DNA of 64,000 bases from an uncultured Clostridia bacterium (GCA_934168305.1 CAKPNF010000001.1:69923-133922); one strand, 5' to 3'; positions 3,850-31,215 are shown, numbered from the stretch's first letter. Numbers and translations are program-made. Notes: a model not told the origin generated them from the letters alone.

Positions 3850-5217
3850 ATGGGAAAAACACCAGTAGAAAAAAACAAAGAATATATAGTAGAAATAATT
3901 GATAATGGATTTGAAGGAGAAGGAATTGCAAAAATAGACAATTTTACAATTTTTATTAATGGTGCAATAAAAGGAGAAAAAGTAAAAATACTAATTGTAA
4001 AAGTTTTATCATCACATGCATTTGGAAAAATAGTAGAAATACTAGAAAAATCATATGCCAGACAAGAAGTAGACTGCACAACATATAAAAGATGTGGTGG
4101 ATGCAACATGAGACATATAAAATATGAAGATACACTAAAAATGAAACAAAATGCAGTTCAATCATTAGTAAATAAAACACTAAAAAACAAAATTCAAGTC
4201 AAGCCTACACTAGGCATGGAAAATCCATTACATTACAGAAATAAAGCACAATATCCAATAGGTATAAATAAGAATGGAGAGCCAGTAATTGGCGTATTTG
4301 CGAATAGAACACATGAAGTAATAACTATGGAAAAATGCTTAATTCAAAATCCAATATCAGAAGAAATAGCAAAAACAGTATTAGAATTTATAAAGAAAAA
4401 TAAAATTTCAATATATAACGAAAAAACAGTAAAAGGACTATTTAGACACATTGTAATAAAAGTTGGAATAAAAACAAATGAAGTAATGTGTATATTAGTT
4501 ATAAACGGTAACAAAATTCCAAAAGAAGATGAATTAGTAGAAATTCTAACACAAAAATATCCTAATATAAAAACAATAGTAAAAAATATAAATACCAAAA
4601 ACACAAATGTTATATTAGGAAAAGAAAATATCAATATATATGGAAATGGATATATTGAAGATAAATTAGGAGAATATACGTTTAAAATATCACCACTTTC
4701 ATTTTACCAAGTAAACCCTGTACAGGCTGAAAGACTTTACAATATTGGCGTAGAGGCAGCAAAAATAACAAAAAATGATACAGTGTTTGACTTATATTGT
4801 GGTATTGGAACAATTTCATTATTTATGGCAAAACATGCTAAAAAAGTGTATGGAGTTGAAATTGTAGAACAGGCAATTAAAGATGCAAAAGAAAATGCAA
4901 AAATTAATAATGTTGATAATGCTGAATTTATTGCAGGTGATACGGAAATTGTTTTGGATGACCTAATAAATAACAAAAATATTATTCCGGATGTTGTTAT
5001 GATTGACCCTCCAAGAAAAGGGCTTGATAATAAATCTATTGATAATATTTTAAAGATTAAACCTGATAGATTTGTGTATATTAGTTGTAATCCTGCTACT
5101 TTGGTTAGAGATTTGGCTAAATTTGAAGAGGTTTATGATGTTAAAGAGATTCAACCAGTAGATATGTTCCCTTTTACAGGACATGTTGAATGTGTATGTG
5201 TTCTAAATCTTAAATAA
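3850..5217 (+). CDS. rlmD: 23S rRNA (uracil-C5)-methyltransferase RlmD/RumA (TRAM + 4Fe-4S + SAM MTase)
   Basis: 455 aa. TRAM domain N-terminus. Cys cluster CTTYKRCGGCNMRH. C-terminal DPPRKG methyltransferase motif and nucleophile Cys. Confidence 0.85.
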   Translation: MGKTPVEKNKEYIVEIIDNGFEGEGIAKIDNFTIFINGAIKGEKVKILIVKVLSSHAFGKIVEILEKSYARQEVDCTTYKRCGGCNMRHIKYEDTLKMKQNAVQSLVNKTLKNKIQVKPTLGMENPLHYRNKAQYPIGINKNGEPVIGVFANRTHEVITMEKCLIQNPISEEIAKTVLEFIKKNKISIYNEKTVKGLFRHIVIKVGIKTNEVMCILVINGNKIPKEDELVEILTQKYPNIKTIVKNINTKNTNVILGKENINIYGNGYIEDKLGEYTFKISPLSFYQVNPVQAERLYNIGVEAAKITKNDTVFDLYCGIGTISLFMAKHAKKVYGVEIVEQAIKDAKENAKINNVDNAEFIAGDTEIVLDDLINNKNIIPDVVMIDPPRKGLDNKSIDNILKIKPDRFVYISCNPATLVRDLAKFEEVYDVKEIQPVDMFPFTGHVECVCVLNLK

Positions 5218-5328: not shown

Positions 5329-5844
5329 ATGGTATTTAGTATTTTAGCATTATTAGCAGTGTGTATTAGTATATGTATTAAAGATAGAAAAAAATCATTA
5401 TATGTTCAATCATTAAACTGCTTTTTTGAAGCAATATATGATTTTTTAATATCTGCTTTTACAGGCGCAATTTTAAGTATAATAAATTTAATAAGGACTT
5501 TTATATTTATAAATAAAAATAAATTTAGTAAATCTGTATATTTAATAATACTATTTATTTTTGAAGGAATAATTATGATAAATTGTTATTTTTCATGGAC
5601 AGGGTGGGTTTCGCTATTACCAACAATTGGTTCAATGATTAGATCATATTGTCTATGGCAATCAAATATGAAATTAGTTAGAATATCTGGAATAACAACA
5701 GGAATTTTATACGGCTCTTATTATATTTATTACCATAGTTGGTTCATGGTATTAGGTGATTTTATTTTATTACTTACAGGAATATACACACTTTACAAAA
5801 ATGATATAAGGAGGAAAAGTAACAATGAAGTTATATGTAATTAG
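5329..5844 (+). CDS. hypothetical integral membrane protein
   Basis: 171 aa with 4-5 hydrophobic helices. No recognisable catalytic motif. Confidence 0.35.
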   Translation: MVFSILALLAVCISICIKDRKKSLYVQSLNCFFEAIYDFLISAFTGAILSIINLIRTFIFINKNKFSKSVYLIILFIFEGIIMINCYFSWTGWVSLLPTIGSMIRSYCLWQSNMKLVRISGITTGILYGSYYIYYHSWFMVLGDFILLLTGIYTLYKNDIRRKSNNEVICN

Positions 5845-6364
5845 ACATGGAAACACAGATAGTAATAGATTAGATATATATAATGGAAAATTATTAAATG
5901 AAGATATAAATAATATTGGAATAAAACAAGCACAGGAAGCATCTAAAAAAATTAAAAATTTAAATTTAGATTTGATTATTTGTTCACCACTTTTAAGAAC
6001 AAGACATACCTGTGATATTATAAATTCTAATAAGATAAAAGTAATATATGATGATCGAATAGAAGAAAGAAATTGTGGAGTTTTAACAAATACGAAAATC
6101 GATAATTTTTATTATACGGAATATTGGAATTATTATTCTAAAGTTAAAATCGATAATTTAGAAACAGTTCCAGAATTATTTAAAAGGGTTAATTTATTTT
6201 TAGATGAAATCAAGAAAAAATATAGTGGTCAAAATATACTTTTAGTAACACATGGTGGTGTAGCTAGAGCAATCCATTTTTATTTTAATGAATTGCCAGA
6301 AGATGGACAGGTGGAAAAATATTTGCCAGATAATTGTGAAATAAGAGAATATAGTTTTAATTAA
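5825..6364 (+). CDS. histidine phosphatase family protein (phosphoglycerate mutase-like)
   Basis: 179 aa. N-terminal LYVIRHGNT RHG catalytic motif. C-terminal LLVTHGGV. Confidence 0.8.
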   Translation: MKLYVIRHGNTDSNRLDIYNGKLLNEDINNIGIKQAQEASKKIKNLNLDLIICSPLLRTRHTCDIINSNKIKVIYDDRIEERNCGVLTNTKIDNFYYTEYWNYYSKVKIDNLETVPELFKRVNLFLDEIKKKYSGQNILLVTHGGVARAIHFYFNELPEDGQVEKYLPDNCEIREYSFN

Positions 6365-6552: not shown

Positions 6553-7101
6553 ATGGGAAAAGTTTTAAAAATAAGAGAAGTAGGAGATCCTATTCTTCAA
6601 AAAAAATGTGATGAAATAGATATAAAGAACATAAATAGAGAAATTTTAGACATCATAGAAGATTTAAAAGCAACATTGGAATTCGGTACAGGACTAGGCG
6701 TAGCCGCACCGCAAATAGGAGTAAATAAGAGAATAATTGTAGTAGGGGCTAAAAAAGAAAACATAAAATATAATGATGCAGAAGAAATACCAATAACTGC
6801 AATGATAAATCCAATTTGGAAAAAAATATCAGAAGATACTGACATACAATATGAAGGATGCATGAGTGTTCCAGTAATTAGGGGAAAAGTAGAAAGATAT
6901 AAAAATATAGAATTAACTTATTTTAACGAAAATGGAGAAAAAATTGTAAGACAAGTGAATGGATTTTTTGCAAGACTTGTTCAACATGAATGTGACCACT
7001 TAGATGGTATTGTATTTTTAGAAAAAGTAAAAGAACATAATGGTTTTGCAACAGTTGATAATATAAATAAATATAATTTAAGATATAAAGAAAGAATTTA
7101 G
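6553..7101 (+). CDS. def: peptide deformylase
   Basis: 182 aa. Motifs GLGVAAPQIG, EGCMSVP, QHECDHLDG (HExxH). Confidence 0.9.
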   Translation: MGKVLKIREVGDPILQKKCDEIDIKNINREILDIIEDLKATLEFGTGLGVAAPQIGVNKRIIVVGAKKENIKYNDAEEIPITAMINPIWKKISEDTDIQYEGCMSVPVIRGKVERYKNIELTYFNENGEKIVRQVNGFFARLVQHECDHLDGIVFLEKVKEHNGFATVDNINKYNLRYKERI

Positions 7102-7103
7102 AC

Positions 7104-7328
7104 ATGAAAATTTATAATATTAAACCAGAAGATTATAAAATAAAAATAGTTATGAAAGGTGAAAATATGAAATTACCTACAAGTATAGAAAATAGACTAA
7201 ATGAAAACATTGTAGAAAAAGCAAGAAACAATATGTTAACGAAATTATTTGTTTCTATTCAGATAATGACCCATAGTAGAAATCAAATTTTCACTTTTCA
7301 AAACTATACAGATTTATTTTTGAAATAA
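7104..7328 (+). CDS. hypothetical small protein
   Basis: 74-aa ORF abutting the def stop. No conserved motif recognised. Could be non-coding. Confidence 0.2.
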   Translation: MKIYNIKPEDYKIKIVMKGENMKLPTSIENRLNENIVEKARNNMLTKLFVSIQIMTHSRNQIFTFQNYTDLFLK

Positions 7329-7369
7329 AATTTTTAAGTCAAAAAAATAAAAAAATTATATAAATACTT

Positions 7370-7415
7370 GTCGGAAAGTCTCGTAAATGATATAATATTT
7401 ACGAGACTTTCCGAC
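7370..7415 (+). promoter_or_regulatory. 19-bp perfect inverted repeat (GTCGGAAAGTCTCGTAAAT / ATTTACGAGACTTTCCGAC) enclosing a sigma-A-like promoter: -35 TTGTCG (7368-7373), 17-nt spacer, -10 TATAAT (7391-7396). Probable AbiEi autoregulatory operator.
   Basis: Read directly from the sequence. Lies 15 nt upstream of the abiEi RBS. AbiEi antitoxins are known to autorepress through promoter inverted repeats. Confidence 0.6.
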
Positions 7416-7429
7416 AAAGGAGAAAAAAG

Positions 7430-8023
7430 ATGGATAATATAGAAAGAATTGAAAAATTATTAAAAAAGAATAATGGAATTATAACAACAAGTGAGGTTGA
7501 AAAAATAGGAATTAATAGCAGAGTTTTAACAAGGATGATAGAAAAAGGAATAATAGAAAGAGTTGCAAGAGGAATTTATATAAGTACTGATACATTAGAA
7601 GATAAATATTTTATTACACAAGCTATTTGTAAAAAAGGAATATTCTCGCATGAAACCGCTTTATATTTTCATGACTTGTGTGATAGAACACCAATAAAAT
7701 ATCAATTAACCATACCAAGTTATTATAATCATACACTTATAAAAAATAAAAATTATGAATTCTTTTATTTAAAAGAAGAATTGTATGAAGTTGGTATAAC
7801 AGAAATGATAACACCGTATGGAAACAAAATAAGAGTATATGATTTAGAAAGAACAATTTGTGATATTATTAGAAACAAAAAAAGAATAGAAATAGCATTA
7901 TTTACAGATGCAATGAAAAGATATGCAGAAAGAAAAGATAGAAACTCAATTAGATTACACAAATATGCGAAATTATTTAATATTGAAGATGAGATAAGAA
8001 AATATTTGGAGGTGTTGCTATGA
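7430..8023 (+). CDS. abiEi: type IV toxin-antitoxin system AbiEi family antitoxin (wHTH)
   Basis: 197 aa. N-terminus IEKLLKKNNGIITTSEVEKIGINSRVLTRMIEKGIIERVARGIY matches the AbiEi_4 domain. 4-nt overlap (ATGA) with the downstream toxin gene. Confidence 0.8.
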   Translation: MDNIERIEKLLKKNNGIITTSEVEKIGINSRVLTRMIEKGIIERVARGIYISTDTLEDKYFITQAICKKGIFSHETALYFHDLCDRTPIKYQLTIPSYYNHTLIKNKNYEFFYLKEELYEVGITEMITPYGNKIRVYDLERTICDIIRNKKRIEIALFTDAMKRYAERKDRNSIRLHKYAKLFNIEDEIRKYLEVLL

Positions 8024-8868
8024 TTGCTAAAAATAGAGCACAATTAAAAGCATGGATAAAAAAAGTGTCATCAAAAGTTGACGTAAATGAAAATATTATT
8101 TTACAAAACTACATGCTAGAAAGATTATTGGAAAGAATTTCAGTATCAGATTACAAATATAAATTTGTATTAAAAGGTGGAATGTTAATAACCGCTATAG
8201 TTGGAATAGATATGAGAAATACATTGGATATGGATACGACAATAAAAGGATTTGATTTAGAAAAAGACAACCTAGAAAATATATTAAATGAAATATTCAA
8301 TATAGATTTAGATGATGGAGTTACTTTTGAATTTACAAATATAAAGGAAATAAGACAAGAAGACGAATATGGAGGATATAGAGTTTCATTAAATGCTAAA
8401 TTTGACAAATTAGTTGTACCAATGAAATTAGATATAACAACAGGAGATGTTATTGTACCTAAAGAAGTAAATTATAAATTTGGTTTGATGTTTGAAAATC
8501 GTTCTATAGAAATACTTGCATATAATATGGAAACTGTAATAGCAGATAAATTTGAAACAATTATATCAAGAAATGTTGATACAACTAGAGCAAGGGATTT
8601 TTACGATATATATATACTTTGGACTACACAGTCACAAAATTTTAATAAGGAATTATTAGGACAAGCGATTGTAGAAAAATTTAAATATAGAGAATCTACA
8701 GACAAATTAAACAATATAGATGAGATAATGGGAGTTATAAAAGAAAGTGATGCTTTAAAAGAACACTGGAAGAATTACCAGTCTAAATTTAGTTATGCAG
8801 AAGATATTAGCTATGAAGATACAATAGAAGTGTTAGAAAAAATAATAAATTTATTAAGACAGAAATAA
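8020..8868 (+). CDS. abiEii: nucleotidyltransferase AbiEii/AbiGii toxin family protein (DUF1814)
   Basis: 282 aa. LKGGMLITAIVGIDMRNTLDMDTTIKGF, the GG..R.T.DxD nucleotidyltransferase signature. Translationally coupled to abiEi. Confidence 0.8.
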   Translation: MIAKNRAQLKAWIKKVSSKVDVNENIILQNYMLERLLERISVSDYKYKFVLKGGMLITAIVGIDMRNTLDMDTTIKGFDLEKDNLENILNEIFNIDLDDGVTFEFTNIKEIRQEDEYGGYRVSLNAKFDKLVVPMKLDITTGDVIVPKEVNYKFGLMFENRSIEILAYNMETVIADKFETIISRNVDTTRARDFYDIYILWTTQSQNFNKELLGQAIVEKFKYRESTDKLNNIDEIMGVIKESDALKEHWKNYQSKFSYAEDISYEDTIEVLEKIINLLRQK

Positions 8869-8913
8869 ATTTTTGTAATTAATAAAAAAATTCATGAAAA
8901 AGAATGAAGGGTT

Positions 8914-9414
8914 ATGGAAAATAATTATATTGAATTAGATTGGGATTTAGTTGAAAAAATATATGTTGATAAAGCAAAAATACTAAAGAGAATTGCATAT
9001 AAAAGAGTTCATAATATAGAAGTTGCAGAGGATATTGTGCAAAATACAATGGAATCAATCTGCAAAATAGTAAATAAAAATAATAGAATATACAATTTGG
9101 ATGCATGGATAAATACAATATTAAAATATAGATGGATAGATGTTTATAGAAAAAACAATTCTATACAGTATTTTTCTAATGATGTTATAGAAAATTGTTT
9201 GATAGAGGAAGAGATAGATACAATTGAAAATATAAATTTATATCATGCATTAAAAGATTTGGAAGAATTGGATATGAAATTTATTATATATAAATTTATT
9301 TATGGCTTTAACAATACAGAAATTTCTAGAATTTTTGGATGTTGTAGTCAAACAGTAACAAGGAAAATAAATAAAGCATTGGAAATAATGAGAAACAAAT
9401 TAAGAATAGAGTAA
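8914..9414 (+). CDS. sigma-70 family (ECF-like) RNA polymerase sigma factor, no adjacent anti-sigma
   Basis: 166 aa. Region 2 VAEDIVQNTMESI and RWIDVYRKN. Region 4.2 HTH NTEISRIFGCCSQTVTRKINKALEIMRNKL. Confidence 0.75.
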   Translation: MENNYIELDWDLVEKIYVDKAKILKRIAYKRVHNIEVAEDIVQNTMESICKIVNKNNRIYNLDAWINTILKYRWIDVYRKNNSIQYFSNDVIENCLIEEEIDTIENINLYHALKDLEELDMKFIIYKFIYGFNNTEISRIFGCCSQTVTRKINKALEIMRNKLRIE

Positions 9415-9439
9415 AAGAAACAAAAAATAGGAGGAGAAT

Positions 9440-12400
9440 ATGTCATTTGAAGCAGGGGGAAGAACAGACAAAGCAGGAAATAGATTTGAAATAAGATATT
9501 TTATATTACAATTATTAAAAGTAATAGAAGAAGAAATAAGAAGTGCAACATTAGAGGCTTTGGGTGATGATGAAAAAGGTACAGATATTTGGATTGAAAA
9601 TAAAAATGGAACAAGAGAAAGTCAACAATGCAAAGGAAGATATGGAAACAATGATAATTGGAATTTTTCTGCCATGGATCAATACGAAATTTTTAAAAAT
9701 TGGAAATATCAATTAGATAGAGATAATAACTTTTTCGTTAGTTTAGTATCTCCAATTTCATTTATAGTTTTTGAAGACCTAATAAAAAGAGCTAAAAATA
9801 CAAGTGATAATCCAAGAGACTTTTATGAAAACCAGATAAAAAAGTCTGATGATAAAATGACAAATTGTTATAGTAATTATTGCAAAAGAATGAAATTAAA
9901 TCCAGAAGATGAAAGAGATTTGATTCAGAGTATTGATTATTTAAATAGAACGAATTATCATCAAATACCAGATGAAGAACTAAAAAATATTATTTTGAAT
10001 AAAATAAAATATTTATTTATAGGTGATACTGAAATAATATATAATTGTTTTGTTGAACTGGTGCTAGATGAAAATATCTTAGCACAAAAAATAGATGTTA
10101 TATATCTAGATAATTTTATAAAATCCAAAAATATAATGTTTAGAAATTTATCGAAAGATGATAGAATTCTTCCAAGAATAACAGAATTAAACAATGAATA
10201 TAATCAGTTTTTTTCTCCAATTAATGGTAATTTGATAGAAAGAGAAGAATTTACAAAATGCAAGGAATTAATTGAAGAAGGTAAATCTATAATTATTCAT
10301 GGAAAAGCAGGATATGGAAAAAGTGGTATTACACAATTAATTATTCAGTATTGCGAACAAAAAACAATACCTCATATTGCAATAAAATTAGATAAAAGAG
10401 TTCCAAGAGACAATGTAGAAGAATGGAGTAAAAAACTAGGATTGCCAACATCAATAGGATTTTGCATAGATAGTATTTCTAAAGATAAAAATGCAGTGAT
10501 AATTTTAGATCAGTTAGATGCGTTAAGGTGGACACAGTCACATTCTAGAGATGCGTTATTAGTATGTACAGAGTTAATAGAACAAATAAAAAAACTTAAT
10601 TTTGAAAGACAAAATAAAATTTCGATTATTTTTGTGTGTAGAACCTATGATTTGGAAAATGATAATAGCATTAAATTGTTGTTTAAAGATGAGAGAAAAG
10701 AAAAAATTTGGAAAAAAATAAATGTAGAAAAATTCTCGAAAGAGATGCTAAAATCATTAATAGGAACGGAATATGCTGGGTTCTCAAAAAAATTACAAGA
10801 ATTACTTAGAATTCCAAGCAACTTGTACATATGGAGCAAATTAGATAAAAATCAAAGATATGATGATTGTAATACTACTAATATGTTAATACAAAAATGG
10901 TGGAGTCAATTATTGCAAAAAGCAAATGAATTAGAAATTAGTGAAAAAGAATTACAAGAATGTAAGAATAATATAGTAACAGTATTAGATAAGGCAGGAA
11001 GAATAAGCATATTAAGAAAATTTTTAGATGTTAATGCTAGTGCTTTAGATTATTTATATTCAAATGGTTTCTTAATTATAGAGAATAATATTGTATCATT
11101 TACGCATCAAAGTTTATTAGACTATTTCTTAGAGGAAAATATGTTATATAAATATCAAAATGGAAACAATATTGAAGATATAATTGGAGACAAATCAAAA
11201 CAAATACCTGCAAGAAGATATCAAATTCAAATGCTTTTGGAAGACTTAGCTAATAGTGATACACAAGATTTTATTTGTGTTGGAAGAGAATTATTGGAAT
11301 CTAATAATATAAGATTCTATATAAAATATGTGTTTTTTGAAGTCTTGGGACAAATTACAGATATTGATTATGACATAGAACAATTTATTTTAGAATATTA
11401 TGACAATCAAATGTATGGTGTTCATGTCCTAAATAATGTCATATATTCGCATCCTCAATATGTCAGAATATTAATTAAAAATGGAATTTTTGACATTTGG
11501 ATGAAAGATGATAAAAAGAAAGATATATGTATTAATTTATTAGGAAGTATTAAAGAAAAATATTGTGTGGAAGATGTAAAATTCATAGAAAAGTATTTAT
11601 TCAATTGTGAAGAAGATGATAAAAAAATATACAGGTGTTTTAATTATGATATAAATGACGACATAGATGAAATGTTTGAATTAAGAATGAAACTATATAA
11701 TAAATATCCGGAATTAAGTGATGAATACATTAATTTAAAGAAAATGTTACAAGACAATGAATTAAGAGCAATAAGATTAATAAAATTTTGGCTTGATAAT
11801 AAAGTAAAGAACAAAAACAAGAGAATATATAAATATGAAGAAGAATTGATTACAGAAGAATCAGATATTATTGTTAATAACGATGAAAAAATAATTGAAA
11901 TATTATTGCCATGCATACCAAAAGAAACTAAAACGCATTTTGGAGATTGGACAGGTAGACATAGATTTTCTATTGGAATAGAAAGAGCTTGTGTTGAATT
12001 AATAAAAAAAGCAAATGCTAATTTAATAAAACGAAATCCAGATAGATTTTTAGAAATATATGAAATATATATGGGAAAAGGTTATCCAATATTTAATGAA
12101 TTTATACTGAATGGATTAGAAAGGTTACCGGTAAAATATAGTGACTATGTTATTGGATATTTATGTGCTGATTTTAAAAAGAATATTTTTGATGAAAGTA
12201 GTGGAAATGGTGATGAGTTGTTATTAACCAAAAATATCCTGAAAAAACATTCAGTTAAATGCAGTAAAGAAGTTTTTGAAAACTTAGAAGAAAAAATATA
12301 TTTTTATCAAGAAGATAAAATAGTCGAAATATATAAGAGGATTCGAGAATATAAATTAAATTATACATCTAAAAGAATGTATTGGGATTGCTGGGGAAAT

Positions 12401-13984
12401 GTACAAGTTGAACTTTTGCCATATTTACCATATCAAAGATTAAATTATAAAACACGACAATTAATGAAAGTGCTTAATCGCAAATTTAAAAAAGGTAGCA
12501 ATTATTACAAGTACGATAATGGGCATAGTGGTTCAGTATGGTCTCCAATAAGTAATAAAAATTTAAGTAATAAACAATGGATAAGACTATTTTCAAATAA
12601 AAAATTAGAAAATTTAAAGAGACATACTTGGAAAGAAGTAACCGGTGGCTTTATAGAAAGTAGTATGAGAGAGTTTACCAATAGTTTTAATCAAGCAGTT
12701 TCTAATGAACCAATAAGGGTGATTAATTTAGTTTTATCTAATTCAAATATCATATTGAATGAATTTGTAGATGCACTATATAGTGGATTACAATCAAGCG
12801 AAAACATAGATAAAGTTCCAATAGATCTATTAGAAAAAGTGTTTAAAGTATTTCCGTGTGATAATGAATCGCAGAGAGCTAATTGTATCTGTTGGATAAT
12901 TTATAAAAGAAAGAATATAAATTGGTCTCAGAATACATTAAATTTATTAAAGAATATAGCAATAAATCATAAAGATCCAATAATGGGGAAGCCTAATATA
13001 AAAAATGATAAAGATAAAGAAATTAAAAGCATAGATATGTTACAAAGTAATTCACTTAATTGTACAAGAGGTGAGGCAGCACAAGCAATAGGACATCTTT
13101 TATGGGAAAACATAGAATTATTTGAAGAATTTAAAGAAACAATCCAATTATTAAGTGAAGATATTAATCCTGTAGTGAGATTTGCAAGTTTACACTGCTT
13201 ATTGCCTGCATATAATATTCAAAGGGATTGGGCGAGAGAAAAAATTTTAAATTTATTTGAAACAGATATTAGACTAGTATCTTTTTGGCGTGCAAAAGAT
13301 ATATTATTCTTTTCGTATGATAAAGAAAAGGATAGAGTACTAAAAATAATAGAAAATTGCTATTATTCTGAGGATAAAAAATTAAAGGAAATAGGAAGTT
13401 ACTGTGTAGTAGAAATGTATATATTAAAAAATGAATTTTCATATATAATGAATGAGATTGATTCGATGGATGAAAATCAAATTAAGGCCATTTTGCATAT
13501 GGCAATAAATTATTTTAATAATGTTAAATATAATCAAAAAGTAAAAAATATTATTTCTAGATTTAAAGAAAAAAATTATGATATAGAACAATCTATTTGT
13601 AGATTATTTTATGATAATTTAATAGATTTGAATAGGGACAAAGAATTTCTAAAAGATATTATGAATAGTACTGCAGGAAGACGTTCTATACATTCTTTTA
13701 TTCATTATATTGATGAAAATGCAGTATCTATATTAGATTTTAAAGAAATTATTATAGAATCAATAAACTCTATTTTAGAAAATAGTGAATTAGAAAAAGA
13801 GAACATTTACTATTATGGTGATGAATTATCAAAATTAATTGTAGGTTTATATGATGAAACTGTAGGTAAAAAACAAAGAGAGATGAAAAATCTTTCAGAA
13901 AAATGTTTAGATATCTGGGATGAAATGTTTGAAAAACAAATCGGATCAATTAAGAAATTAAGCAGGGATATTTTGGATAGATAG
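9440..13984 (+). CDS. 1514-aa Avs/NLR-like candidate defense protein: N-terminal DUF4297/Cap4-like PD-(D/E)xK nuclease signature + STAND-like P-loop NTPase + ~1100-aa helical repeat region
   Basis: N-terminus FEAGGRTDKAGNRFEIRYFILQLLKV ... EALGDDEKGTDIWIENK ... ESQQCKG fits the DUF4297 consensus (GG..G.fe..y..lL.LL / E.DD / QxK). Walker A IIIHGKAGYGKSG at nt 10301-10327. Walker B VIILDQLDAL about 65 aa later, then sensor-1-like IIFVCRT. The remaining ~1100 aa is repeat-like and helical (by composition). RBS GGAGG 8 nt upstream. Confidence 0.6.
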   Translation: MSFEAGGRTDKAGNRFEIRYFILQLLKVIEEEIRSATLEALGDDEKGTDIWIENKNGTRESQQCKGRYGNNDNWNFSAMDQYEIFKNWKYQLDRDNNFFVSLVSPISFIVFEDLIKRAKNTSDNPRDFYENQIKKSDDKMTNCYSNYCKRMKLNPEDERDLIQSIDYLNRTNYHQIPDEELKNIILNKIKYLFIGDTEIIYNCFVELVLDENILAQKIDVIYLDNFIKSKNIMFRNLSKDDRILPRITELNNEYNQFFSPINGNLIEREEFTKCKELIEEGKSIIIHGKAGYGKSGITQLIIQYCEQKTIPHIAIKLDKRVPRDNVEEWSKKLGLPTSIGFCIDSISKDKNAVIILDQLDALRWTQSHSRDALLVCTELIEQIKKLNFERQNKISIIFVCRTYDLENDNSIKLLFKDERKEKIWKKINVEKFSKEMLKSLIGTEYAGFSKKLQELLRIPSNLYIWSKLDKNQRYDDCNTTNMLIQKWWSQLLQKANELEISEKELQECKNNIVTVLDKAGRISILRKFLDVNASALDYLYSNGFLIIENNIVSFTHQSLLDYFLEENMLYKYQNGNNIEDIIGDKSKQIPARRYQIQMLLEDLANSDTQDFICVGRELLESNNIRFYIKYVFFEVLGQITDIDYDIEQFILEYYDNQMYGVHVLNNVIYSHPQYVRILIKNGIFDIWMKDDKKKDICINLLGSIKEKYCVEDVKFIEKYLFNCEEDDKKIYRCFNYDINDDIDEMFELRMKLYNKYPELSDEYINLKKMLQDNELRAIRLIKFWLDNKVKNKNKRIYKYEEELITEESDIIVNNDEKIIEILLPCIPKETKTHFGDWTGRHRFSIGIERACVELIKKANANLIKRNPDRFLEIYEIYMGKGYPIFNEFILNGLERLPVKYSDYVIGYLCADFKKNIFDESSGNGDELLLTKNILKKHSVKCSKEVFENLEEKIYFYQEDKIVEIYKRIREYKLNYTSKRMYWDCWGNVQVELLPYLPYQRLNYKTRQLMKVLNRKFKKGSNYYKYDNGHSGSVWSPISNKNLSNKQWIRLFSNKKLENLKRHTWKEVTGGFIESSMREFTNSFNQAVSNEPIRVINLVLSNSNIILNEFVDALYSGLQSSENIDKVPIDLLEKVFKVFPCDNESQRANCICWIIYKRKNINWSQNTLNLLKNIAINHKDPIMGKPNIKNDKDKEIKSIDMLQSNSLNCTRGEAAQAIGHLLWENIELFEEFKETIQLLSEDINPVVRFASLHCLLPAYNIQRDWAREKILNLFETDIRLVSFWRAKDILFFSYDKEKDRVLKIIENCYYSEDKKLKEIGSYCVVEMYILKNEFSYIMNEIDSMDENQIKAILHMAINYFNNVKYNQKVKNIISRFKEKNYDIEQSICRLFYDNLIDLNRDKEFLKDIMNSTAGRRSIHSFIHYIDENAVSILDFKEIIIESINSILENSELEKENIYYYGDELSKLIVGLYDETVGKKQREMKNLSEKCLDIWDEMFEKQIGSIKKLSRDILDR

Positions 13985-14036
13985 TATAGATAATTGAGAT
14001 GGAGGATATATCTTAAAAAAAGAAGGGGGAATATAT

Positions 14037-15116
14037 ATGTTAAAAGACTTATGTTTTGAAATAATACAAACATGCCCTAATAAATGCAAATTTTGTTCTT
14101 CCAATTCCTCAAAAGACAAAAAAACAATAATAACATTAGAAGATTTTAAGAAAACAGTTATGTATTTTATTACTCATGGTGGAATTGGAGAAATATCAAT
14201 TTCAGGAGGAGAACCTTTTTTACATCCAGATTTATTCGAAATGATAAAGTTTTGTAAAGACAATGGAATTAGAACAGTTATATTCACTAGTGGAATAAAA
14301 AGAGCACCTGCAATACCAGAAAAAACGATAGAATATATAAAAAATAAATGTAAAAAAGATTTAGAAGAAATAGAAGAACATGAACCATGGAATGAAAGAC
14401 TAAAAAGAAATGTGAAGGCATATTATAAAAGAATGATTAGTCCAGGAGAATTTACTTCACTAACAAGGCAAGAACTAGAAAAAATAAAAGAATTAGGAGT
14501 AGATAAAATCGTATTTGATTGGCAAGCATTAGATGAAAATATTGATAATGAGTTAATGGGAAGAAAAGCATTAAATACATATCTAATGGATTCTTTGATT
14601 AGAGCAAGCATTGTTGGGTTAAATGTAGATGTTCATTTTATTCCTATGAAGCCAAATTATAAGCAATTTCCAGATATAATAGAATGTTTACAAATAGCAA
14701 AAGTAAAAAATATTAGTATTTTAAATTTTGTACCACAAGGTAGAGGATTAGAAAACAAAAGAGAACTAATGTTAAACGAAACAGAGTTAAGAGAATTTGG
14801 AGAAATATTAAAAAAAGAAAAAGAGCATTATAGCGGTAACATAAGAATTGGAATTCCTTTAAATGGAAAAATATCTCATTTATGCACAGCTGGAACTGAA
14901 AAATTGGATATAAAATATGACGGAACAATACTACCATGTCCAGCATTCAAGGAAATGAGCGTAGAGAAAATGGAAAAGTACGGTATAAAATTACATAGTA
15001 TATATGAGGATTTGGAAAAAGTAGTTATACATGAAGGAAAAAGAAAATCGCCATTATGTAAGCAAGTATATGGATTTAAAGGAAAGTTGACAGAAAGTGA
15101 AGAGATAGAGTTTTAA
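14037..15116 (+). CDS. radical SAM protein, with a possible auxiliary Cys cluster
   Basis: 359 aa. CPNKCKFC (Cx3Cx2C) at nt 14073-14095. GGEPFL glycine-rich SAM motif. Three further Cys in the C-terminal 80 aa (HLC, LPCP, PLCK). 52 nt downstream of the giant ORF, same strand. Confidence 0.8.
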   Translation: MLKDLCFEIIQTCPNKCKFCSSNSSKDKKTIITLEDFKKTVMYFITHGGIGEISISGGEPFLHPDLFEMIKFCKDNGIRTVIFTSGIKRAPAIPEKTIEYIKNKCKKDLEEIEEHEPWNERLKRNVKAYYKRMISPGEFTSLTRQELEKIKELGVDKIVFDWQALDENIDNELMGRKALNTYLMDSLIRASIVGLNVDVHFIPMKPNYKQFPDIIECLQIAKVKNISILNFVPQGRGLENKRELMLNETELREFGEILKKEKEHYSGNIRIGIPLNGKISHLCTAGTEKLDIKYDGTILPCPAFKEMSVEKMEKYGIKLHSIYEDLEKVVIHEGKRKSPLCKQVYGFKGKLTESEEIEF

Positions 15117-15128
15117 GGAGGAATAGTT

Positions 15129-15299
15129 ATGAAAATATTAATTGGAACAAAAAATCCAGGAAAAATAGAAGGAGCAAAACAAGCATTTGAAAAATATTTT
15201 AACAATGTAGAAATAGAAGGAATACCAGTAAAATCAAATGTAGGAGACCAACCAGTAAACGAAGAAATACAAATTCTTTGGGAGAATGGATTGATATAA
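15129..15299 (+). pseudogene. rdgB: truncated N-terminal fragment (57 aa) of a non-canonical purine NTP pyrophosphatase (RdgB/Ham1 family)
   Basis: MKILIGTKNPGKIEGAKQAFEKYF..VEIEG matches the Ham1 N-terminus (MKxxxATxNxGKxxExxxxL). The ORF stops after 57 codons, and the remaining ~140 aa of the family is absent. Has an RBS (AGGAGG). Confidence 0.5.
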
Positions 15300-15331
15300 A
15301 TGCAGTAGTCGTAGAAGATTAGAGGAAAATT

Positions 15332-15937
15332 ATGATAAAAAGATACAAACAAACAGAAATAGAAAAAATAGCAGAAATACTAAAAAATGATGGAGTAATC
15401 AGTGTTCCAACAGACACAGTATATGGAGTATGTGCTAGAATAAACTCAAAAAAAGCACACGATAATTTAGTAAAAACAAAAAATAGACCAATTACGAAAC
15501 CATTTCCAATAATGTGTTCAGATAAAGAACAAATAAAAAGCATAGCAATAGTAGATGAAAAAGCAGAAAAACTAATAAAAAAATTTATGCCTGGTCCAAT
15601 AACACTAATTTTAGAGAAAAGACCAGAAGTACCAGAATATGTAAGCAATGGGAAAGCAACAATAGCAGTACGAATGGCAACATCAAAAGAGATAAAAGAA
15701 TTGATTATAAAAACAGGATGTCCAATATTTATGAGCAGTGCTAATCAAAGTGGAGAGCCAACATGTACAAACCTAGATGAAATAGAAAATGAATGCCCAA
15801 ATCTAGATGGAATGATGGAAGGAACAGTTAAATTTGGAAAAGGAAGTACAATAGTTGACTGCGTTTCAAAAGAATTAAAGATTTTAAGAGAGGGACCAAT
15901 TACAATAGAACAAATTAGAAAAATTATTGAAAGATAA
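15332..15937 (+). CDS. tsaC: L-threonylcarbamoyladenylate synthase (YrdC-type, short form)
   Basis: 201 aa. ISVPTDTVYGVCAR, KNRPITKPFPIM, MSSANQSGEP are YrdC/Sua5 motifs. Confidence 0.85.
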   Translation: MIKRYKQTEIEKIAEILKNDGVISVPTDTVYGVCARINSKKAHDNLVKTKNRPITKPFPIMCSDKEQIKSIAIVDEKAEKLIKKFMPGPITLILEKRPEVPEYVSNGKATIAVRMATSKEIKELIIKTGCPIFMSSANQSGEPTCTNLDEIENECPNLDGMMEGTVKFGKGSTIVDCVSKELKILREGPITIEQIRKIIER

Positions 15938-15962: not shown

Positions 15963-17498
15963 ATGATAAAGAATAATATAAGAGATTACCAACAAGAAAT
16001 AATTAATGTTATTATAAAAAAATTACAACAAAATTCAAAAGAAATATTTATAGAAATGCCATCAGGAACAGGAAAAAGTATAGTCATTGAAGAAGTAATT
16101 AAGTTATTAGAAGCTAAAAGCAATATTTTAATAATCAATAAAAACAAAATAGCAGAACAACAATTTAAGGAACAATTTAAAAATTATAAAAACGTGACAA
16201 TAGAAAATTACTATAATTATCAGTCAATAATAGATAAATTTGATTATATTATATTTAGCGATATGGAAGAATTGTCTGAAGAAAAATATAAAAATATATA
16301 TCAAATATTTAAAAAAGCAAGAATAATAGGATTTTGTAATAAAAGTCAAAGAATAAGTAAGCGAGGGGAATGGTTAGATAAAAAAACTATAGATTATTCC
16401 ATAACTATTCAACAGATAATTAATGACGGCTATATGAATCCAAATCAATTAGAAAATCAATTTCAATATTTTATCGAAGAACTCTTAAAGAAATTAAGAT
16501 TTATTAATTTAGAAAAAGAAAGAGCTTTAAAAACTAAAAAAGGAATAATGAGAGTAGATTTTATTATTCATAATAATGAAAAAGAAATAATTGTAGAAAC
16601 TAAGGACTACAGGAGTAAATTTGTAGAAGGTACTATCATTAATCGAGCAATAGAACAATTAGATTATTATAAGAGTATATTGCAAGAAGAAAATAAAAAT
16701 GATATAGAAGCCATATTAATTGTGAATTGCTATGTTTCAGAAAAAATAAAGGAAAGTACTTATAATGAAAAGAAAATTTTGATTTTAGATATTTCTAATT
16801 TAATATATTTATCACAAAAAAATGAAGAATTGATGAAAAATCTAATAGAAAGTACACAATATAATATTTATGATATAGTTCCAAAAGAACCTATAAAGAT
16901 GGAATTGCTAAAATTACAAAAGAAAGAAAATATAAGCAAGAGTGTTGAAAATGAAATAGATAGTGCAAAAAAATTTATACAAAGATTAGAAAATATGAAA
17001 TATGGTAACAAAGAAAAGAATGACAAAGAATATGAAAAATTATGTGTACAAATTATTAGATATTTATTTGAAACAGAGTTTACAAGAATATTAGAACAAA
17101 GTAGTACAGAAGATAAAATGTTCAGAATGGATTTAGTTTGTGGATTAAAAGGAACTTCAGAATTTTGGAAAATACTTATTCAACATTACAATACAAGATT
17201 TGTTGTTTTTGAATTTAAAAATTATAAAGAAGAAATTGATCAAAATCTTATTTATATAACTGAAAAATACCTATATAATGCAGTTTTAAGAAACGTAGCA
17301 ATTATTGTATCAAGGAAAGGTTTTTCATATAATGCTCATAAGGCTGCAATAGGAGTATTAACCGAAAATGGAAAATTAATTATAGAAATAAAAGATGATG
17401 ATTTAATTACAATGTTAAGAATGAAAGCTGATGGACAAGATGCATCAGATTATTTATTAAATATATTAGAAGAATATTTAATATCTATTAGTAAATAA
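15963..17498 (+). CDS. hypothetical protein with degenerate SF2-helicase-like N-terminus and two PD-(D/E)xK nuclease-like motifs (candidate defense protein)
   Basis: 511 aa. RDYQQEII + EMPSGTGKS (Q-motif/Walker A) and DYIIFSDMEE (weak motif II). MRVDFIIHNNEKEIIVETKDY (D..ExK). RMDLVCG...FVVFEFKNY (second D..ExK). Confidence 0.45.
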   Translation: MIKNNIRDYQQEIINVIIKKLQQNSKEIFIEMPSGTGKSIVIEEVIKLLEAKSNILIINKNKIAEQQFKEQFKNYKNVTIENYYNYQSIIDKFDYIIFSDMEELSEEKYKNIYQIFKKARIIGFCNKSQRISKRGEWLDKKTIDYSITIQQIINDGYMNPNQLENQFQYFIEELLKKLRFINLEKERALKTKKGIMRVDFIIHNNEKEIIVETKDYRSKFVEGTIINRAIEQLDYYKSILQEENKNDIEAILIVNCYVSEKIKESTYNEKKILILDISNLIYLSQKNEELMKNLIESTQYNIYDIVPKEPIKMELLKLQKKENISKSVENEIDSAKKFIQRLENMKYGNKEKNDKEYEKLCVQIIRYLFETEFTRILEQSSTEDKMFRMDLVCGLKGTSEFWKILIQHYNTRFVVFEFKNYKEEIDQNLIYITEKYLYNAVLRNVAIIVSRKGFSYNAHKAAIGVLTENGKLIIEIKDDDLITMLRMKADGQDASDYLLNILEEYLISISK

Positions 17499-31140: not shown

Positions 31141-31215
31141 TGGGGTGTAGCCAAGCGGTAAGGCAGATGGCTCTGACCCATCGATGCGTAGGTTCGAATC
31201 CTACCACCCCAGCCA
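31141..31215 (+). tRNA. tRNA-Gln (anticodon CUG)
   Basis: Manual cloverleaf. Acceptor TGGGGTG/CACCCCA. Anticodon stem GATGG/CCATC with loop CTCTGAC. T-arm GTAGG-TTCGAAT-CCTAC. Discriminator G + CCA. Confidence 0.9.

What the first reader, a model, noticed from the sequence alone, without database searches (positions are those of the whole stretch)
7366..15299. ~8 kb defense-like insertion between def and tsaC: AbiE TA + ECF sigma + giant nuclease-STAND protein + radical SAM, ending at a truncated rdgB
Six co-directional genes with 4-52 nt gaps (abiEi, abiEii, sigma, 1514-aa ORF, rSAM) sit between two housekeeping genes. The 3' edge is marked by a 57-codon remnant of rdgB, so the region was apparently rearranged. 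No integrase or transposase is present. AbiE is an established abortive-infection module. A sigma factor and a radical SAM enzyme tightly linked to an Avs-like giant protein is not an arrangement I can match to a described system. The insertion may be a composite defense island, or a single new multi-gene system.
Basis: partly seen in the sequence, partly recalled or inferred. Interest (0 to 1): 0.85.

Follow-up and report, generated by a model that had tools for sequence, protein, structure and literature searches.

The report
AbiE plus Avs-like nuclease defence island
A 6.6-kb horizontally acquired block carries two ordinary kinds of anti-phage defence, an AbiE toxin-antitoxin pair and a giant Avs-type nuclease-NTPase sensor, with a small sigma factor between them; the radical SAM gene and the gene remnant next to it are resident chromosomal genes, not part of any system.

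Summary

- **The insertion:** it runs from about 7335 to 13984 and holds abiEi, abiEii, an ECF-like sigma and the 1514-aa gene.
- **Elsewhere:** the same four-gene block, 75-92% identical, sits at a different site in other Clostridia. One locus lacks the sigma.
- **The giant gene:** it stands alone in about 75 other Bacillota genomes, among defence and mobile genes, with no sigma or radical SAM neighbour.
- **The radical SAM gene:** it is a vertically inherited backbone gene, present next to def or tsaC in relatives that lack the block.
- **The "rdgB remnant":** it is a decayed NTPase_I-T (YjjX-type) pseudogene left by a later, separate deletion.

The giant protein has a Cap4-like PD-(D/E)xK nuclease, a STAND NTPase and a roughly 900-aa helical sensor. 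Its model matches Avs3 and Avs4. Its only sequence relative in the PDB is SeAvs7, which senses phage capsid protein. That link is distant but collinear in all three modules.

Verdict: a composite defence island built from known kinds of system. The conserved but dispensable sigma is the only unusual feature. Interest is low to moderate.

The parts
7369..7416 (.). Perfect 20-bp-arm palindrome (TGTCGGAAAGTCTCGTAAAT ... ATTTACGAGACTTTCCGACA) enclosing a sigma-70-type promoter (TTGTCG, 17 nt, TATAAT with a TG extension, 7368-7396). Putative AbiEi operator and abiE promoter, and the left end of the acquired block (similarity to other copies starts near 7335).
   Evidence: Sequence and promoter/hairpin scan. 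Alignment of five copies shows mirrored changes in the two arms (GTCTC/GAGAC against TCTTC/GAAGA), so the palindrome is kept. AbiEi autoregulation through promoter inverted repeats is published (PMC3985639, PMC7319586). Binding was not tested here.
7430..8023 (+). abiEi, type IV antitoxin and transcriptional autorepressor (197 aa)
   Evidence: Pfam AbiEi_4 8.6e-12. PADLOC AbiEi 1.2e-71 over the full length. dN/dS 0.04-0.09 between copies.
8020..8868 (+). abiEii, DUF1814 nucleotidyltransferase toxin (282 aa). Overlaps abiEi by 4 nt.
   Evidence: Pfam AbiEii 1.5e-37. PADLOC AbiEii 5.4e-97. G-G ... D-x-D NTase motif visible in the translation. dN/dS 0.10-0.12.
8914..9414 (+). ECF-like sigma-70 family factor (166 aa, regions 2 and 4 only). 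Accessory member of the block with no adjacent anti-sigma.
   Evidence: Sigma70_r2 5.1e-08 and r4_2 0.002. TIGR02937 58 bits against a cut-off of 42.9. Only 21 homolog clusters found. Present in the block in L004 and L098-L101, cleanly absent in L003, truncated in L103-L105. dN/dS 0.16-0.27.
9440..10234 (+). Giant protein, residues 1-265: Cap4-like PD-(D/E)xK nuclease effector (conserved D49 and Q63-C64-K65)
   Evidence: Conserved residues. A profile of the N-terminal domain alone hits only the SeAvs7 Cap4 region 46-190 in the PDB, E 0.009, with D...QCK aligned. The AF2 model (pLDDT 87.5) matches the nuclease-bearing Avs3 and Avs4 chains.
10235..11239 (+). Giant protein, residues about 266-600: STAND NTPase (Walker A G288-KAGxGKS-295, Walker B D357-QLD-360, R401) with helical and winged-helix subdomains
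   Evidence: Invariant columns. Weak nSTAND3 and PADLOC PDC-M54A 8.9e-16. PDB profile search hits only SeAvs7 (9n00), E 1.3e-6 to 2.4e-7. Foldseek: Avs3 2e-13, Avs4 3e-13, EfAvs5, NLRC4. 52% identical to STAND seed WP_105177080.1 of Lee et al..
11240..13984 (+). Giant protein, residues about 601-1514: all-alpha HEAT/TPR-like solenoid sensor. The stop codon is the right end of the acquired block.
   Evidence: AF2 model pLDDT 85.8, all helical. Foldseek gives generic HEAT solenoids, with Avs4 the best TM at 0.38. hhalign against SeAvs7 1069-1346: probability 66%, E 5.7e-5, collinear. 809 clusters carry this sensor. Similarity to the other block copies ends at the stop codon.
14037..15116 (+). 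Radical SAM enzyme (359 aa, CxxxCxxC at 13-20, PqqE-like C-terminal half). Resident backbone gene, NOT part of the island.
   Evidence: Found in relatives without the block. Never next to giant homologs in the other genomes. Intact in L103, where the giant is broken.
15129..15319 (+). NTPase_I-T (DUF84/YjjX-type) pseudogene. Codons 1-47 are in frame (15129-15269), residues 80-96 lie in another frame (15269-15319), and the 3' half is deleted. A backbone remnant, NOT the edge of the island.
   Evidence: Pfam PF01931 8.6e-11, NCBIfam NTPase, tblastn against the intact 176-aa ortholog. The intact gene plus a 271-aa AAA_21/SMC_N gene occupies this position in L103-L105.

Best explanation
Window ~7335-13984 is a horizontally acquired composite defence island of four co-oriented, probably co-transcribed genes. 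It is inserted into a gene-flux hotspot downstream of rlmD and def.

**AbiE module.** abiEi and abiEii form a type IV toxin-antitoxin abortive-infection pair. AbiEi is expected to bind the 20-bp-arm palindrome that encloses the sigma-70 promoter and so repress the operon. AbiEii is a DUF1814 nucleotidyltransferase toxin that stops growth when released.

**The 1514-aa protein.** It is a self-sufficient, single-gene antiviral STAND (Avs-type) receptor, and its closest characterised relative is SeAvs7. By inference from Avs3, Avs4 and Avs7, it works in four steps:
1. The helical C-terminal sensor binds a conserved phage structural protein. The major capsid protein is the best guess.
2. Binding relieves autoinhibition.
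3. The ATP-bound NTPase domains oligomerise.
4. The N-terminal Cap4-like PD-(D/E)xK nuclease domains assemble and cut dsDNA, aborting the infection.

**The sigma.** The ECF-like sigma between the two modules is a lineage-specific accessory. It is under purifying selection but dispensable: it is deleted or truncated in sister copies. Most likely it modulates transcription of the island or of other genes.

**Backbone.** The radical SAM gene, the NTPase_I-T pseudogene, def, orf74 and tsaC are chromosomal backbone.

**Shown here:** gene content, block boundaries, the block's presence at two different sites, independence of the giant from sigma and rSAM, the domain architecture, and intact catalytic motifs.

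**Inferred:** AbiEi-operator binding, co-transcription, the trigger, oligomerisation, DNA cleavage and the sigma's role.
For: - **Block and transfer:**
  - The same AbiEi-AbiEii-sigma-giant block is 84-92% identical for three genes and 75-76% for sigma. In L004 and L098 it sits after a Ser_hydrolase gene, followed by RhuM or adh_short and a serine recombinase; L099-L101 carry the block but do not reach that upstream gene.
  - Block identity to L098 (86-88%) exceeds backbone identity (rlmD 74%).
  - The boundaries are sharp.
- **Empty site:** L092 and L094 have rlmD...def-NUDIX-NUDIX-rSAM with no block.
- **Giant stands alone:**
  - In the roughly 75 genome loci outside the block clade there is no sigma, rSAM or AbiE.
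  - The neighbours are RhuM, PemK, ResIII, methylases and recombinases.
- **Architecture:** AF2 models reach pLDDT 87.5 and 85.8. Foldseek top hits are Avs3 and Avs4 at about 1e-13. Walker A/B and D...QxK are invariant or nearly so.
- **SeAvs7 link:**
  - SeAvs7 is the only PDB sequence hit for the whole-protein profiles. Its best-scoring stretch lies in the NTPase region.
  - It is also the only significant hit for the nuclease-only profile.
  - The sensor matches collinearly by hhalign.
  - Bridging proteins link the NTPases at E 2e-10.
- **Avs7 mechanism:** taken from Lee et al., bioRxiv 10.64898/2026.01.04.697583.
- **AbiE:**. The palindrome shows mirrored arm changes and holds the promoter. 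AbiE biology comes from PMC3985639 and PMC7319586.
- **Selection:** all four genes have dN/dS of 0.04-0.27.
Against: - Nothing here is functional evidence. Defence activity, the trigger and nuclease activity are all inferred.
- The link to SeAvs7 is distant. The NTPases are about 20% identical, and a sensor-only profile finds no PDB hit at E<=10. The trigger may therefore not be a capsid protein.
- No PADLOC Avs1-5 model matched.
- No mobility gene or flanking repeat explains how the block moved.
- The sigma is conserved under purifying selection in six block loci (seven with the window), so calling it a mere accessory may understate a real regulatory coupling.
- The AbiE-giant adjacency is also conserved across the clade, so functional coupling cannot be excluded.
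Confidence: 0.7

Rival explanations
1. The four genes form one integrated system. The AbiEi-controlled promoter and the embedded sigma set the expression level of the Avs-like protein. For example, loss of AbiEi during infection would derepress the operon, and sigma would amplify it or redirect RNA polymerase. AbiE would also act as an addiction module that keeps the island in place.
For: - Spacers are tight at 25-45 nt, and the scan finds no + strand terminator-like site from 7430 to 15300.
- The AbiE-giant adjacency is kept in every copy of this clade, including L003 without sigma.
- Sigma has dN/dS of 0.16-0.27, so it is not a decaying passenger in the intact copies.
- There is a precedent for an ECF sigma controlling a defence island: DdvS/DdvA in Myxococcus (PMC11506125).
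Against: - Giant homologs work in about 75 other genomic contexts without AbiE or sigma.
- Sigma is cleanly absent in L003, where the giant is intact and 89% identical.
- No anti-sigma is present in the block.
- The closest sigma homolog (80% identical) lies outside any such block.
Confidence: 0.2
2. One reading: sigma, the giant protein and the radical SAM enzyme form a single new multi-gene defence system, with the radical SAM making a signal or a modified nucleotide as viperins do.
For: - The genes are adjacent and co-directional, with a 52-nt gap in the window.
- The radical SAM N-terminus weakly resembles pVip models (1.7e-13, residues 6-92 only).
Against: - No radical SAM lies beside a giant homolog in the roughly 75 loci outside the block clade, nor in L003, L004 and L098-L101.
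- The rSAM has a core-gene-like homolog distribution and is present in relatives without the block.
- The block's similarity ends at the giant's stop codon.
- rSAM is intact where the giant is a pseudogene.
- The viperin equivalog scores 41 bits against a cut-off of 180.
Confidence: 0.03
3. The giant STAND protein is not an anti-phage receptor. It serves another role, such as an inter-bacterial or plasmid conflict function or a regulatory NTPase, and only resembles Avs proteins in architecture.
For: - No experimental data exist for this family.
- No known Avs1-5 PADLOC model matched.
- It is absent from the phage collection and rare on plasmids.
Against: - It has a nuclease effector, a STAND NTPase and a large helical sensor, and its best structural matches are Avs3 and Avs4.
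- Its neighbourhoods are rich in TA, RM and other defence or mobile genes.
- A family member was chosen as a STAND seed in Lee et al..
- Its distribution is patchy and it is readily pseudogenised, which is typical of defence genes.
Confidence: 0.07

Closest known systems
SeAvs7 (Salmonella enterica Avs7; PDB 9N00/9N01/9YIX; Lee et al., bioRxiv 10.64898/2026.01.04.697583)
   Same: - Same length class: 1514 aa against 1523 aa.
- Same order of modules: Cap4-type PD-(D/E)xK nuclease with an aligned D...QCK motif, then a STAND NTPase with Walker A Lys at 294 against 292 and Walker B Asp at about 357-360 against 358, then a helical sensor of about 900 aa.
- SeAvs7 is the only PDB sequence hit for the family profile, and similarity is collinear in all three modules.
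   Different: - The relationship is very distant. The NTPases are about 20% identical, with no significant pairwise BLAST hit.
- A sensor-only profile does not reach SeAvs7.
- The host phylum differs: Bacillota against Proteobacteria.
- The capsid-protein trigger and EF-Tu recruitment are unknown for this protein.
- Membership in the authors' Avs7 list could not be checked because Tables S7 and S8 are not held.
SeAvs3 / EcAvs4 (PDB 8DGC, 8DGF), the prototypical antiviral STAND proteins
   Same: - These are the best structural matches to the N-terminal 620 residues (Foldseek E 2e-13 and 3e-13). Avs4 also gives the best TM for the sensor region (0.38).
- The logic is the same: a nuclease effector, a STAND NTPase, and a repeat sensor that binds a conserved phage protein and drives tetramerisation.
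   Different: - No PADLOC AVAST model matched.
- Sequence identity is 13-14%.
- Overall TM scores are low because the domains are arranged differently.
- The sensors are not demonstrably homologous.
AbiE type IV toxin-antitoxin / abortive infection system (Lactococcus and Streptococcus agalactiae AbiEi/AbiEii; PMC3985639, PMC7319586)
   Same: - A bicistronic, overlapping abiEi-abiEii pair.
- AbiEi with a winged-HTH and AbiEii with a DUF1814 NTase.
- Inverted repeats across the promoter.
   Different: Here the operon appears to continue into two more genes, sigma and an Avs-like protein, that are not part of the canonical AbiE system.
DdvS/DdvA ECF sigma / anti-sigma control of a CBASS-CRISPR island in Myxococcus xanthus (PMC11506125)
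   Same: An ECF-type sigma factor is encoded within or next to a defence locus.
   Different: - No transmembrane anti-sigma partner is present in the block.
- The sigma lies inside the operon rather than upstream as a regulator pair.
- It is dispensable in sister copies.
- No sigma-dependent promoter was identified.

Membership tests
AbiE (type IV TA / Abi) | Adjacent or overlapping abiEi-abiEii bicistron | tested here: met
   7430-8023 and 8020-8868, with a 4-nt overlap
AbiE (type IV TA / Abi) | AbiEi antitoxin with an N-terminal winged-HTH, matching AbiEi models over the full length | tested here: met
   PF13338 8.6e-12. PADLOC PDLC02225 1.2e-71, residues 1-196. The NCBIfam equivalog NF047376 scores only 22 bits against a cut-off of 150, so this is a different AbiEi subfamily.
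AbiE (type IV TA / Abi) | AbiEii DUF1814 nucleotidyltransferase toxin | tested here: met
   PF08843 1.5e-37. PADLOC PDLC02288 5.4e-97.
AbiE (type IV TA / Abi) | Inverted repeats in the promoter for AbiEi autorepression | tested here: met
   A 20-bp-arm palindrome encloses the -35/-10 elements. Arm changes are mirrored across copies. Actual binding is not testable here.
AbiE (type IV TA / Abi) | Toxicity neutralised by AbiEi, and an abortive-infection phenotype | not testable with these tools
   Needs experiments
Avs (antiviral STAND) in general | Tripartite single polypeptide: N-terminal effector, STAND NTPase, large C-terminal repeat sensor | tested here: met
   AF2 models. Foldseek top hits Avs3, Avs4 and EfAvs5. 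Helical solenoid sensor.
Avs (antiviral STAND) in general | Intact Walker A/B and effector catalytic residues | tested here: met
   GKAGxGKS 288-295, DQLD 357-360, and D49 with Q63-x-K65 are invariant or nearly so
Avs (antiviral STAND) in general | Stand-alone gene in defence-island or mobile contexts | tested here: met
   80 genome loci, about 75 of them outside the AbiE-block clade. There is no conserved partner. Neighbours are RhuM, PemK, ResIII, methylases and recombinases.
Avs (antiviral STAND) in general | Activation by a conserved phage protein, and anti-phage activity | not testable with these tools
   Needs phage challenge and trigger screens
Avs7 sensu Lee et al. 2026 | C-terminal sensor homologous to the bilobed SeAvs7/Dsr1 sensor | tested here: inconclusive
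   A sensor-only profile finds no PDB hit at E<=10. hhalign against SeAvs7 1069-1346 gives probability 66%, E 5.7e-5, collinear. The bridge protein is weak at E 0.088. The 9N00 structure is not in the fold libraries. Tables S7 and S8 are not held.
Avs7 sensu Lee et al. 2026 | NTPase related to that of SeAvs7 | tested here: inconclusive
   SeAvs7 is the only PDB hit of the family profile (E 2.4e-7; domain 3.4e-5). A Sinorhizobium bridge protein links both (E 4e-34 to the giant, 2e-10 to the SeAvs7 NTPase). Direct pairwise similarity is not significant.
Avs7 sensu Lee et al. 2026 | Major-capsid-protein trigger with EF-Tu incorporation | not testable with these tools
   Experimental or structural
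PADLOC candidate PDC-M54 (gene A) | Full-length match to the 1621-position PDC-M54A model | tested here: not met
   Only residues 266-563 match profile positions 303-604, E 8.9e-16. This is NTPase-level similarity only. No paper mentions PDC-M54.
Prokaryotic viperin (pVip), for the radical SAM gene | Score above the viperin equivalog cut-off, with a match beyond the generic rSAM core | tested here: not met
   NF038283 scores 41 bits against a cut-off of 180. PADLOC pVip hits cover only residues 6-92.
ECF sigma / anti-sigma regulatory pair | Sigma-70 regions 2 and 4 only (ECF-type) | tested here: met
   TIGR02937 58 bits against a cut-off of 42.9. PF04542 and PF08281. PDB hit 5uxx, deposited as 'RNA polymerase sigma factor'.
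ECF sigma / anti-sigma regulatory pair | Cognate anti-sigma encoded next to the sigma | tested here: not met
   The downstream gene is the giant, 25 nt away. A membrane protein follows a 63%-identical homolog only in L102, outside the block.

The most novel reading that the evidence does not exclude
The ECF-like sigma is a working part of a clade-specific AbiE-sigma-Avs operon. An infection-triggered disturbance of AbiEi repression would produce a burst of this orphan sigma, which has no anti-sigma. The sigma would then either boost expression of the Avs-like nuclease or redirect RNA polymerase away from phage or host promoters. That would couple a toxin-antitoxin switch, a sigma factor and a STAND receptor into one layered response.
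Probability: 0.12. Interest if true: 0.55.

Novelty: new member of a known kind. Interest (0 to 1): 0.3.

Why it matters
- **What it removes:** the finding loses its most exciting element, a radical-SAM-linked and sigma-linked giant STAND system.
- **What it places:** the 1514-aa protein belongs to a large, experimentally untouched Bacillota family of Cap4-like nuclease STAND receptors. That family has about 800 clusters at 50% identity, and its nearest characterised relative is the capsid-sensing Avs7.
- **Why the family is useful:** it could be used to test whether Avs7-type capsid recognition extends to Gram-positive and gut Clostridia phages.
- **What is left to explain:** the recurrent AbiE-sigma-Avs operon is a small, tractable case for asking whether TA promoters and orphan sigma factors regulate neighbouring defence genes.
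- **A caution for neighbourhood-based discovery:** tight co-directional spacing in an AT-rich genome was not evidence of a functional unit.

Tried and rejected
- **Conserved partners of the giant:** phmmer with the window's sigma, rSAM and AbiE proteins against all ORFs in 80 genome loci. De novo clustering of neighbours. Pfam on 71 upstream and 74 downstream neighbours. No conserved partner emerged.
- **Lee et al. supplement:** six NCBI accessions of family members were not found, and Tables S4-S8 were truncated when stored. Only a seed-level match to C. cagae WP_105177080.1 could be shown.
- **Fold searches:**
  - The SeAvs7 structures did not appear among the Foldseek PDB matches, so they are presumably not in that library (release cut-off 2026-04-08).
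  - afdb50 was not available.
- **Other collections:** Rfam found only a tRNA at 31141. The phage collection had no giant homolog. Plasmids had only distant ones.
- **Mobility signatures:** there is no serine recombinase in the window, no copy of the block's usual downstream segment, and only an 11-nt AT-rich repeat at the junctions.
- **Composition:** the base-composition profile shows no island signal.
- **Variant architectures:** Pfam on shorter and longer family members revealed no alternative effector domains.
- **PDC-M54:** no literature mentions it.

Full report
**1. What is in the sequence**

The + strand of window 6.5-17.5 kb carries these genes:
- def: 6553-7101
- a 74-codon ORF: 7104-7328
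- abiEi: 7430-8023
- abiEii: 8020-8868, overlapping abiEi by 4 nt
- a 166-aa sigma factor: 8914-9414
- a 1514-aa ORF: 9440-13984
- a 359-aa radical SAM enzyme: 14037-15116
- a 56-codon fragment: 15129-15299
- tsaC: 15332-15937
- a 511-aa helicase-like gene: 15963-17498

- Pep_deformylase
- AbiEi_4 and AbiEii, with PADLOC scores of 1.2e-71 and 5.4e-97
- an ECF-type sigma (TIGR02937, 58 bits against a cut-off of 42.9)
- Radical_SAM
- Sua5/YrdC

The fragment is not rdgB (Ham1). It matches NTPase_I-T/DUF84, the YjjX-type ITPase/XTPase family.

GC content is about 0.21-0.29 from 4 to 21 kb, with no step at the island. The scan finds no terminator-like site on the + strand between 7430 and 15300.

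**2. Is sigma + giant + radical SAM a unit? No**

The giant has more than 940 homologs, mostly 1511-1520 aa, in Clostridium, Sporomusa, Paenibacillus, Cohnella and others.

I fetched 80 genome loci encoding homologs that are 34-91% identical, with up to 10 kb on each side. Window proteins were then searched against every ORF in these loci:
- AbiEi and AbiEii appear only in the two closest loci, L003 and L004 (giant 89% identical).
- Sigma appears only in L004 and in a contig-end fragment, L037.
- The radical SAM appears in none.

Pfam scans of the 71 immediate upstream and 74 immediate downstream neighbours found no sigma other than L004's and no radical SAM. The recurrent neighbours were:
- RhuM (8 loci)
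- rlmD-type methyltransferases (8 loci)
- PemK toxins, ResIII helicases, DNA methylases, Fic proteins and recombinases

De novo clustering of neighbours gave the same picture, with no partner present in more than 12 of 79 loci. The giant is therefore a stand-alone gene living in defence-island and mobile contexts.

**3. The radical SAM gene is backbone**

Its homologs form a dense cloud. The best 120 clusters are all 73-94% identical and of the same length. That is the pattern of a vertically inherited lineage gene, unlike the giant, whose identity falls steeply from 98% to 59%.

Its contexts in relatives are:
- L092 and L094: rlmD (76%), two ORFs, def (82%), NUDIX, NUDIX, rSAM (86%). There is no AbiE, sigma or giant, so this is effectively the empty site.
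- L089-L091: rSAM (92%), a 190-aa ORF, Ppx-GppA, Nuc_deoxyri_tr2, tsaC (88%).
- L083: rlmD, a 403-aa ORF, rSAM (87%), then seven small hydrolase and nucleotide-metabolism genes among other small ORFs, then an intact 176-aa NTPase_I-T.

It is not a viperin. The equivalog scores 41 bits against a cut-off of 180, and pVip similarity is confined to the generic rSAM core at residues 6-92.

**4. The real insertion and its history**

*Other copies.* A sigma homolog that is 76% identical lies in four further loci, L098-L101. Their gene order is AbiEi, AbiEii, sigma and a 1512-aa giant. In L098 the block follows a Ser_hydrolase gene, and in all four it is followed by adh_short and a large serine recombinase. 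L003 and L004 share that insertion site and are followed by RhuM genes and, in L004, a recombinase.

*Identity to the window*:
- AbiEi 84-86%
- AbiEii 88-92%
- sigma 75-76%
- giant 88-89%

The backbone gene rlmD is only 74% identical between the window and L098. The block has therefore moved horizontally.

*Boundaries.* DNA alignments place the left boundary about 45 nt upstream of the abiE palindrome, near window 7335. The right boundary in the window falls exactly at the giant's stop codon, 13984. The other copies share at least 150 more nucleotides downstream that the window lacks.

*Sigma loss.* L003 lacks sigma cleanly. There abiEii is followed after 26 nt by the giant, with the same ribosome-binding site.

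*A near-identical sister strain* (L103-L105; def 99%, AbiEi 100%, giant 98-100%) has the same insertion at the same site, with these differences:
- sigma is truncated to 125 aa
- the giant is split into 426 and 1091 aa
- the radical SAM is intact
- NTPase_I-T is intact at 176 aa
- an extra 271-aa AAA_21/SMC_N gene precedes tsaC

The window's NTPase remnant therefore results from a separate, later deletion. Codons 1-47 are in frame, residues 80-96 are in another frame, and the rest is gone. It is not the scar of the island's arrival.

*Mobility.* No serine recombinase is found in the window, and there are no meaningful flanking repeats. How the block moved is unknown.

**5. AbiE module**

A perfect 20-bp-arm palindrome at 7369-7416 encloses a good sigma-70 promoter: TTGTCG, 17 nt, then TG-extended TATAAT. 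Across five copies the arms differ at mirrored positions (GTCTC/GAGAC against TCTTC/GAAGA), which preserves the palindrome.

This fits the published behaviour of AbiEi, which represses abiE by binding promoter inverted repeats (PMC3985639, PMC7319586). AbiEii carries the G-G ... D-x-D nucleotidyltransferase motif. Binding, toxicity and the abortive-infection phenotype are inferred, not shown.

**6. The giant protein**

*Conserved motifs.* Alignments show these residues are invariant or nearly so:
- D49 and Q63-C64-K65, a PD-(D/E)xK motif of the QxK variant
- Walker A, GKAGxGKS at 288-295
- Walker B, DQLD at 357-360

*N-terminal model.* The AlphaFold2 model of residues 1-620 has pLDDT 87.5. Its best Foldseek matches are Avs3 (8DGC, 2e-13), Avs4 (8DGF, 3e-13) and EfAvs5, followed by NLRC4, NLRP9, NLRP3 and NOD2.

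*Sensor model.* Residues 561-1514 (pLDDT 85.8) form an all-helical solenoid. It gives generic HEAT-repeat matches, and Avs4 has the best TM score at 0.38.

*Sequence link to SeAvs7.* Family profiles hit a single PDB sequence, 9N00_A, at E 1.3e-6 to 2.4e-7. This is apo SeAvs7, a 1523-aa protein with a Cap4 nuclease, a STAND NTPase and a bilobed sensor. According to Lee et al. (bioRxiv 10.64898/2026.01.04.697583), it binds the phage major capsid protein, recruits EF-Tu, tetramerises and cleaves dsDNA.

The similarity is weak but collinear in all three modules:
- A nuclease-only profile hits SeAvs7 residues 46-190 at E 0.009, with D...QCK aligned.
- The NTPase domain gives E 3.4e-5.
- The sensor C-lobe gives hhalign probability 66%, E 5.7e-5, at matching positions of about 1092-1349 against 1072-1340.

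*Bridging proteins*:
- A plasmid protein from Isosphaeraceae is a full-length homolog of the giant (E 4e-119).
- A Sinorhizobium "AAA family ATPase" matches the giant at E 4e-34 and the SeAvs7 NTPase seed at E 2e-10.

*Evidence against a close link.* A sensor-only profile does not reach SeAvs7, and pairwise NTPase similarity is not significant.

*Place in the Lee et al. data set.* The window's NTPase domain is 52% identical to seed #368 of that study, WP_105177080.1 from C. cagae. The family is therefore inside their STAND data set, but its clade and sensor-cluster assignment sit in tables that are not held.

*Census.* A search with the sensor finds 809 clusters at 50% identity with E<=1e-3, and 274 with E<=1e-30. 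Among the 150 best hits listed, the full-length ones are mostly 1480-1560 aa with the sensor at about 600-1515.

I therefore call it an Avs-type receptor that is Avs7-like, not a proven Avs7 member. PADLOC's Avs models did not match, and PDC-M54A matched only the NTPase.

**7. The sigma**

It is an ECF-type sigma with only 21 homolog clusters.

Homologs also occur outside the block:
- The closest one, 80% identical, follows a recombinase tail and an NT5C-like gene.
- A 63% homolog follows Ham1 and precedes a single-pass membrane protein that could be an anti-sigma.

In the block no anti-sigma is present. Pairwise dN/dS values are 0.16-0.27 for sigma, 0.04-0.12 for AbiE and about 0.13 for the giant.

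Intact sigma copies are therefore under purifying selection, if somewhat relaxed. Yet the gene is lost in L003 and truncated in L103-L105 and in several database entries. It is best described as a conserved but dispensable accessory.

A regulatory role is possible, with the DdvS/DdvA-controlled CBASS-CRISPR island as a precedent (PMC11506125), but it is untested. From my own knowledge, clostridial TcdR-family sigma factors activate adjacent toxin genes. I did not test that resemblance.

**8. Verdict**

The "composite defence island" reading is supported, and the "new sigma-giant-rSAM system" reading is not.

The island combines a known system, AbiE, with a new member of a known kind: an Avs-type Cap4-nuclease STAND receptor whose closest characterised relative is Avs7. 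The modest residual novelty lies in the clade-specific AbiE-sigma-Avs operon and in an uncharacterised Bacillota branch of these receptors.

Noticed in passing
window 15963-17498 (+): A 511-aa gene lies directly after tsaC. It has an N-terminal ResIII/DEAD helicase motif region and a C-terminal part matching phrog_31260 (1.6e-62) and the PADLOC candidate PDC-M36A (1.3e-12). This is a second defence-candidate gene just outside the finding. Relatives carry different genes at this position (L089 and L103).
   Followed up: partly
window 3850-5217 (rlmD-type TRAM/U5 methyltransferase); loci: This methyltransferase is the immediate upstream neighbour of giant homologs in 8 of 71 other genomes. It lies 2-3.5 kb upstream of the block in the window and L098, and about 1 kb upstream in L103. 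The region downstream of it looks like a recurrent hotspot for this defence gene across Bacillota.
   Followed up: partly
window 5329-6364: The YgjV-like (171 aa) and His_Phos_1 (179 aa) genes between rlmD and def are absent in the near-identical sister strain L103, where rlmD is directly followed by def. This is another recent indel in the same variable region.
   Followed up: no
window 7104-7328 (+): A 74-codon ORF starts 2 nt after the def stop codon. It is 100% conserved with def in L103 but is absent from the other block copies. It matches no Pfam, PADLOC, NCBIfam or PHROG family.
   Followed up: partly
window 14037-15116 and loci L083, L085, L087, L089, L092: In relatives, the orphan radical SAM gene sits among nucleotide house-cleaning and salvage genes: NUDIX, NT5C, Ppx-GppA, Nuc_deoxyri_tr2, NTPase_I-T, Q_salvage and Ham1-HD. 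Its C-terminal half resembles PqqE-type SPASM/twitch enzymes. Its function is unknown and may be nucleotide-related.
   Followed up: partly
L103 5200-10146 (sister strain): In a strain with 98-100% identical block genes, the sigma is N-terminally truncated (125 aa) and the giant is split into 426 and 1091 aa. AbiE and the radical SAM stay intact. This is an example of rapid decay of the Avs-like gene.
   Followed up: partly
L004 9673-13081: Two RhuM-family genes follow the block in L004. A RhuM gene lies 15-63 nt downstream of giant homologs in several unrelated Lachnospiraceae and Clostridia loci (8 of 74 downstream neighbours). This is the only recurrent tight downstream neighbour, though far from universal.
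   Followed up: no
window 31141-31212 (+): This single tRNA gene is the only Rfam match in the 64-kb window.
   Followed up: no
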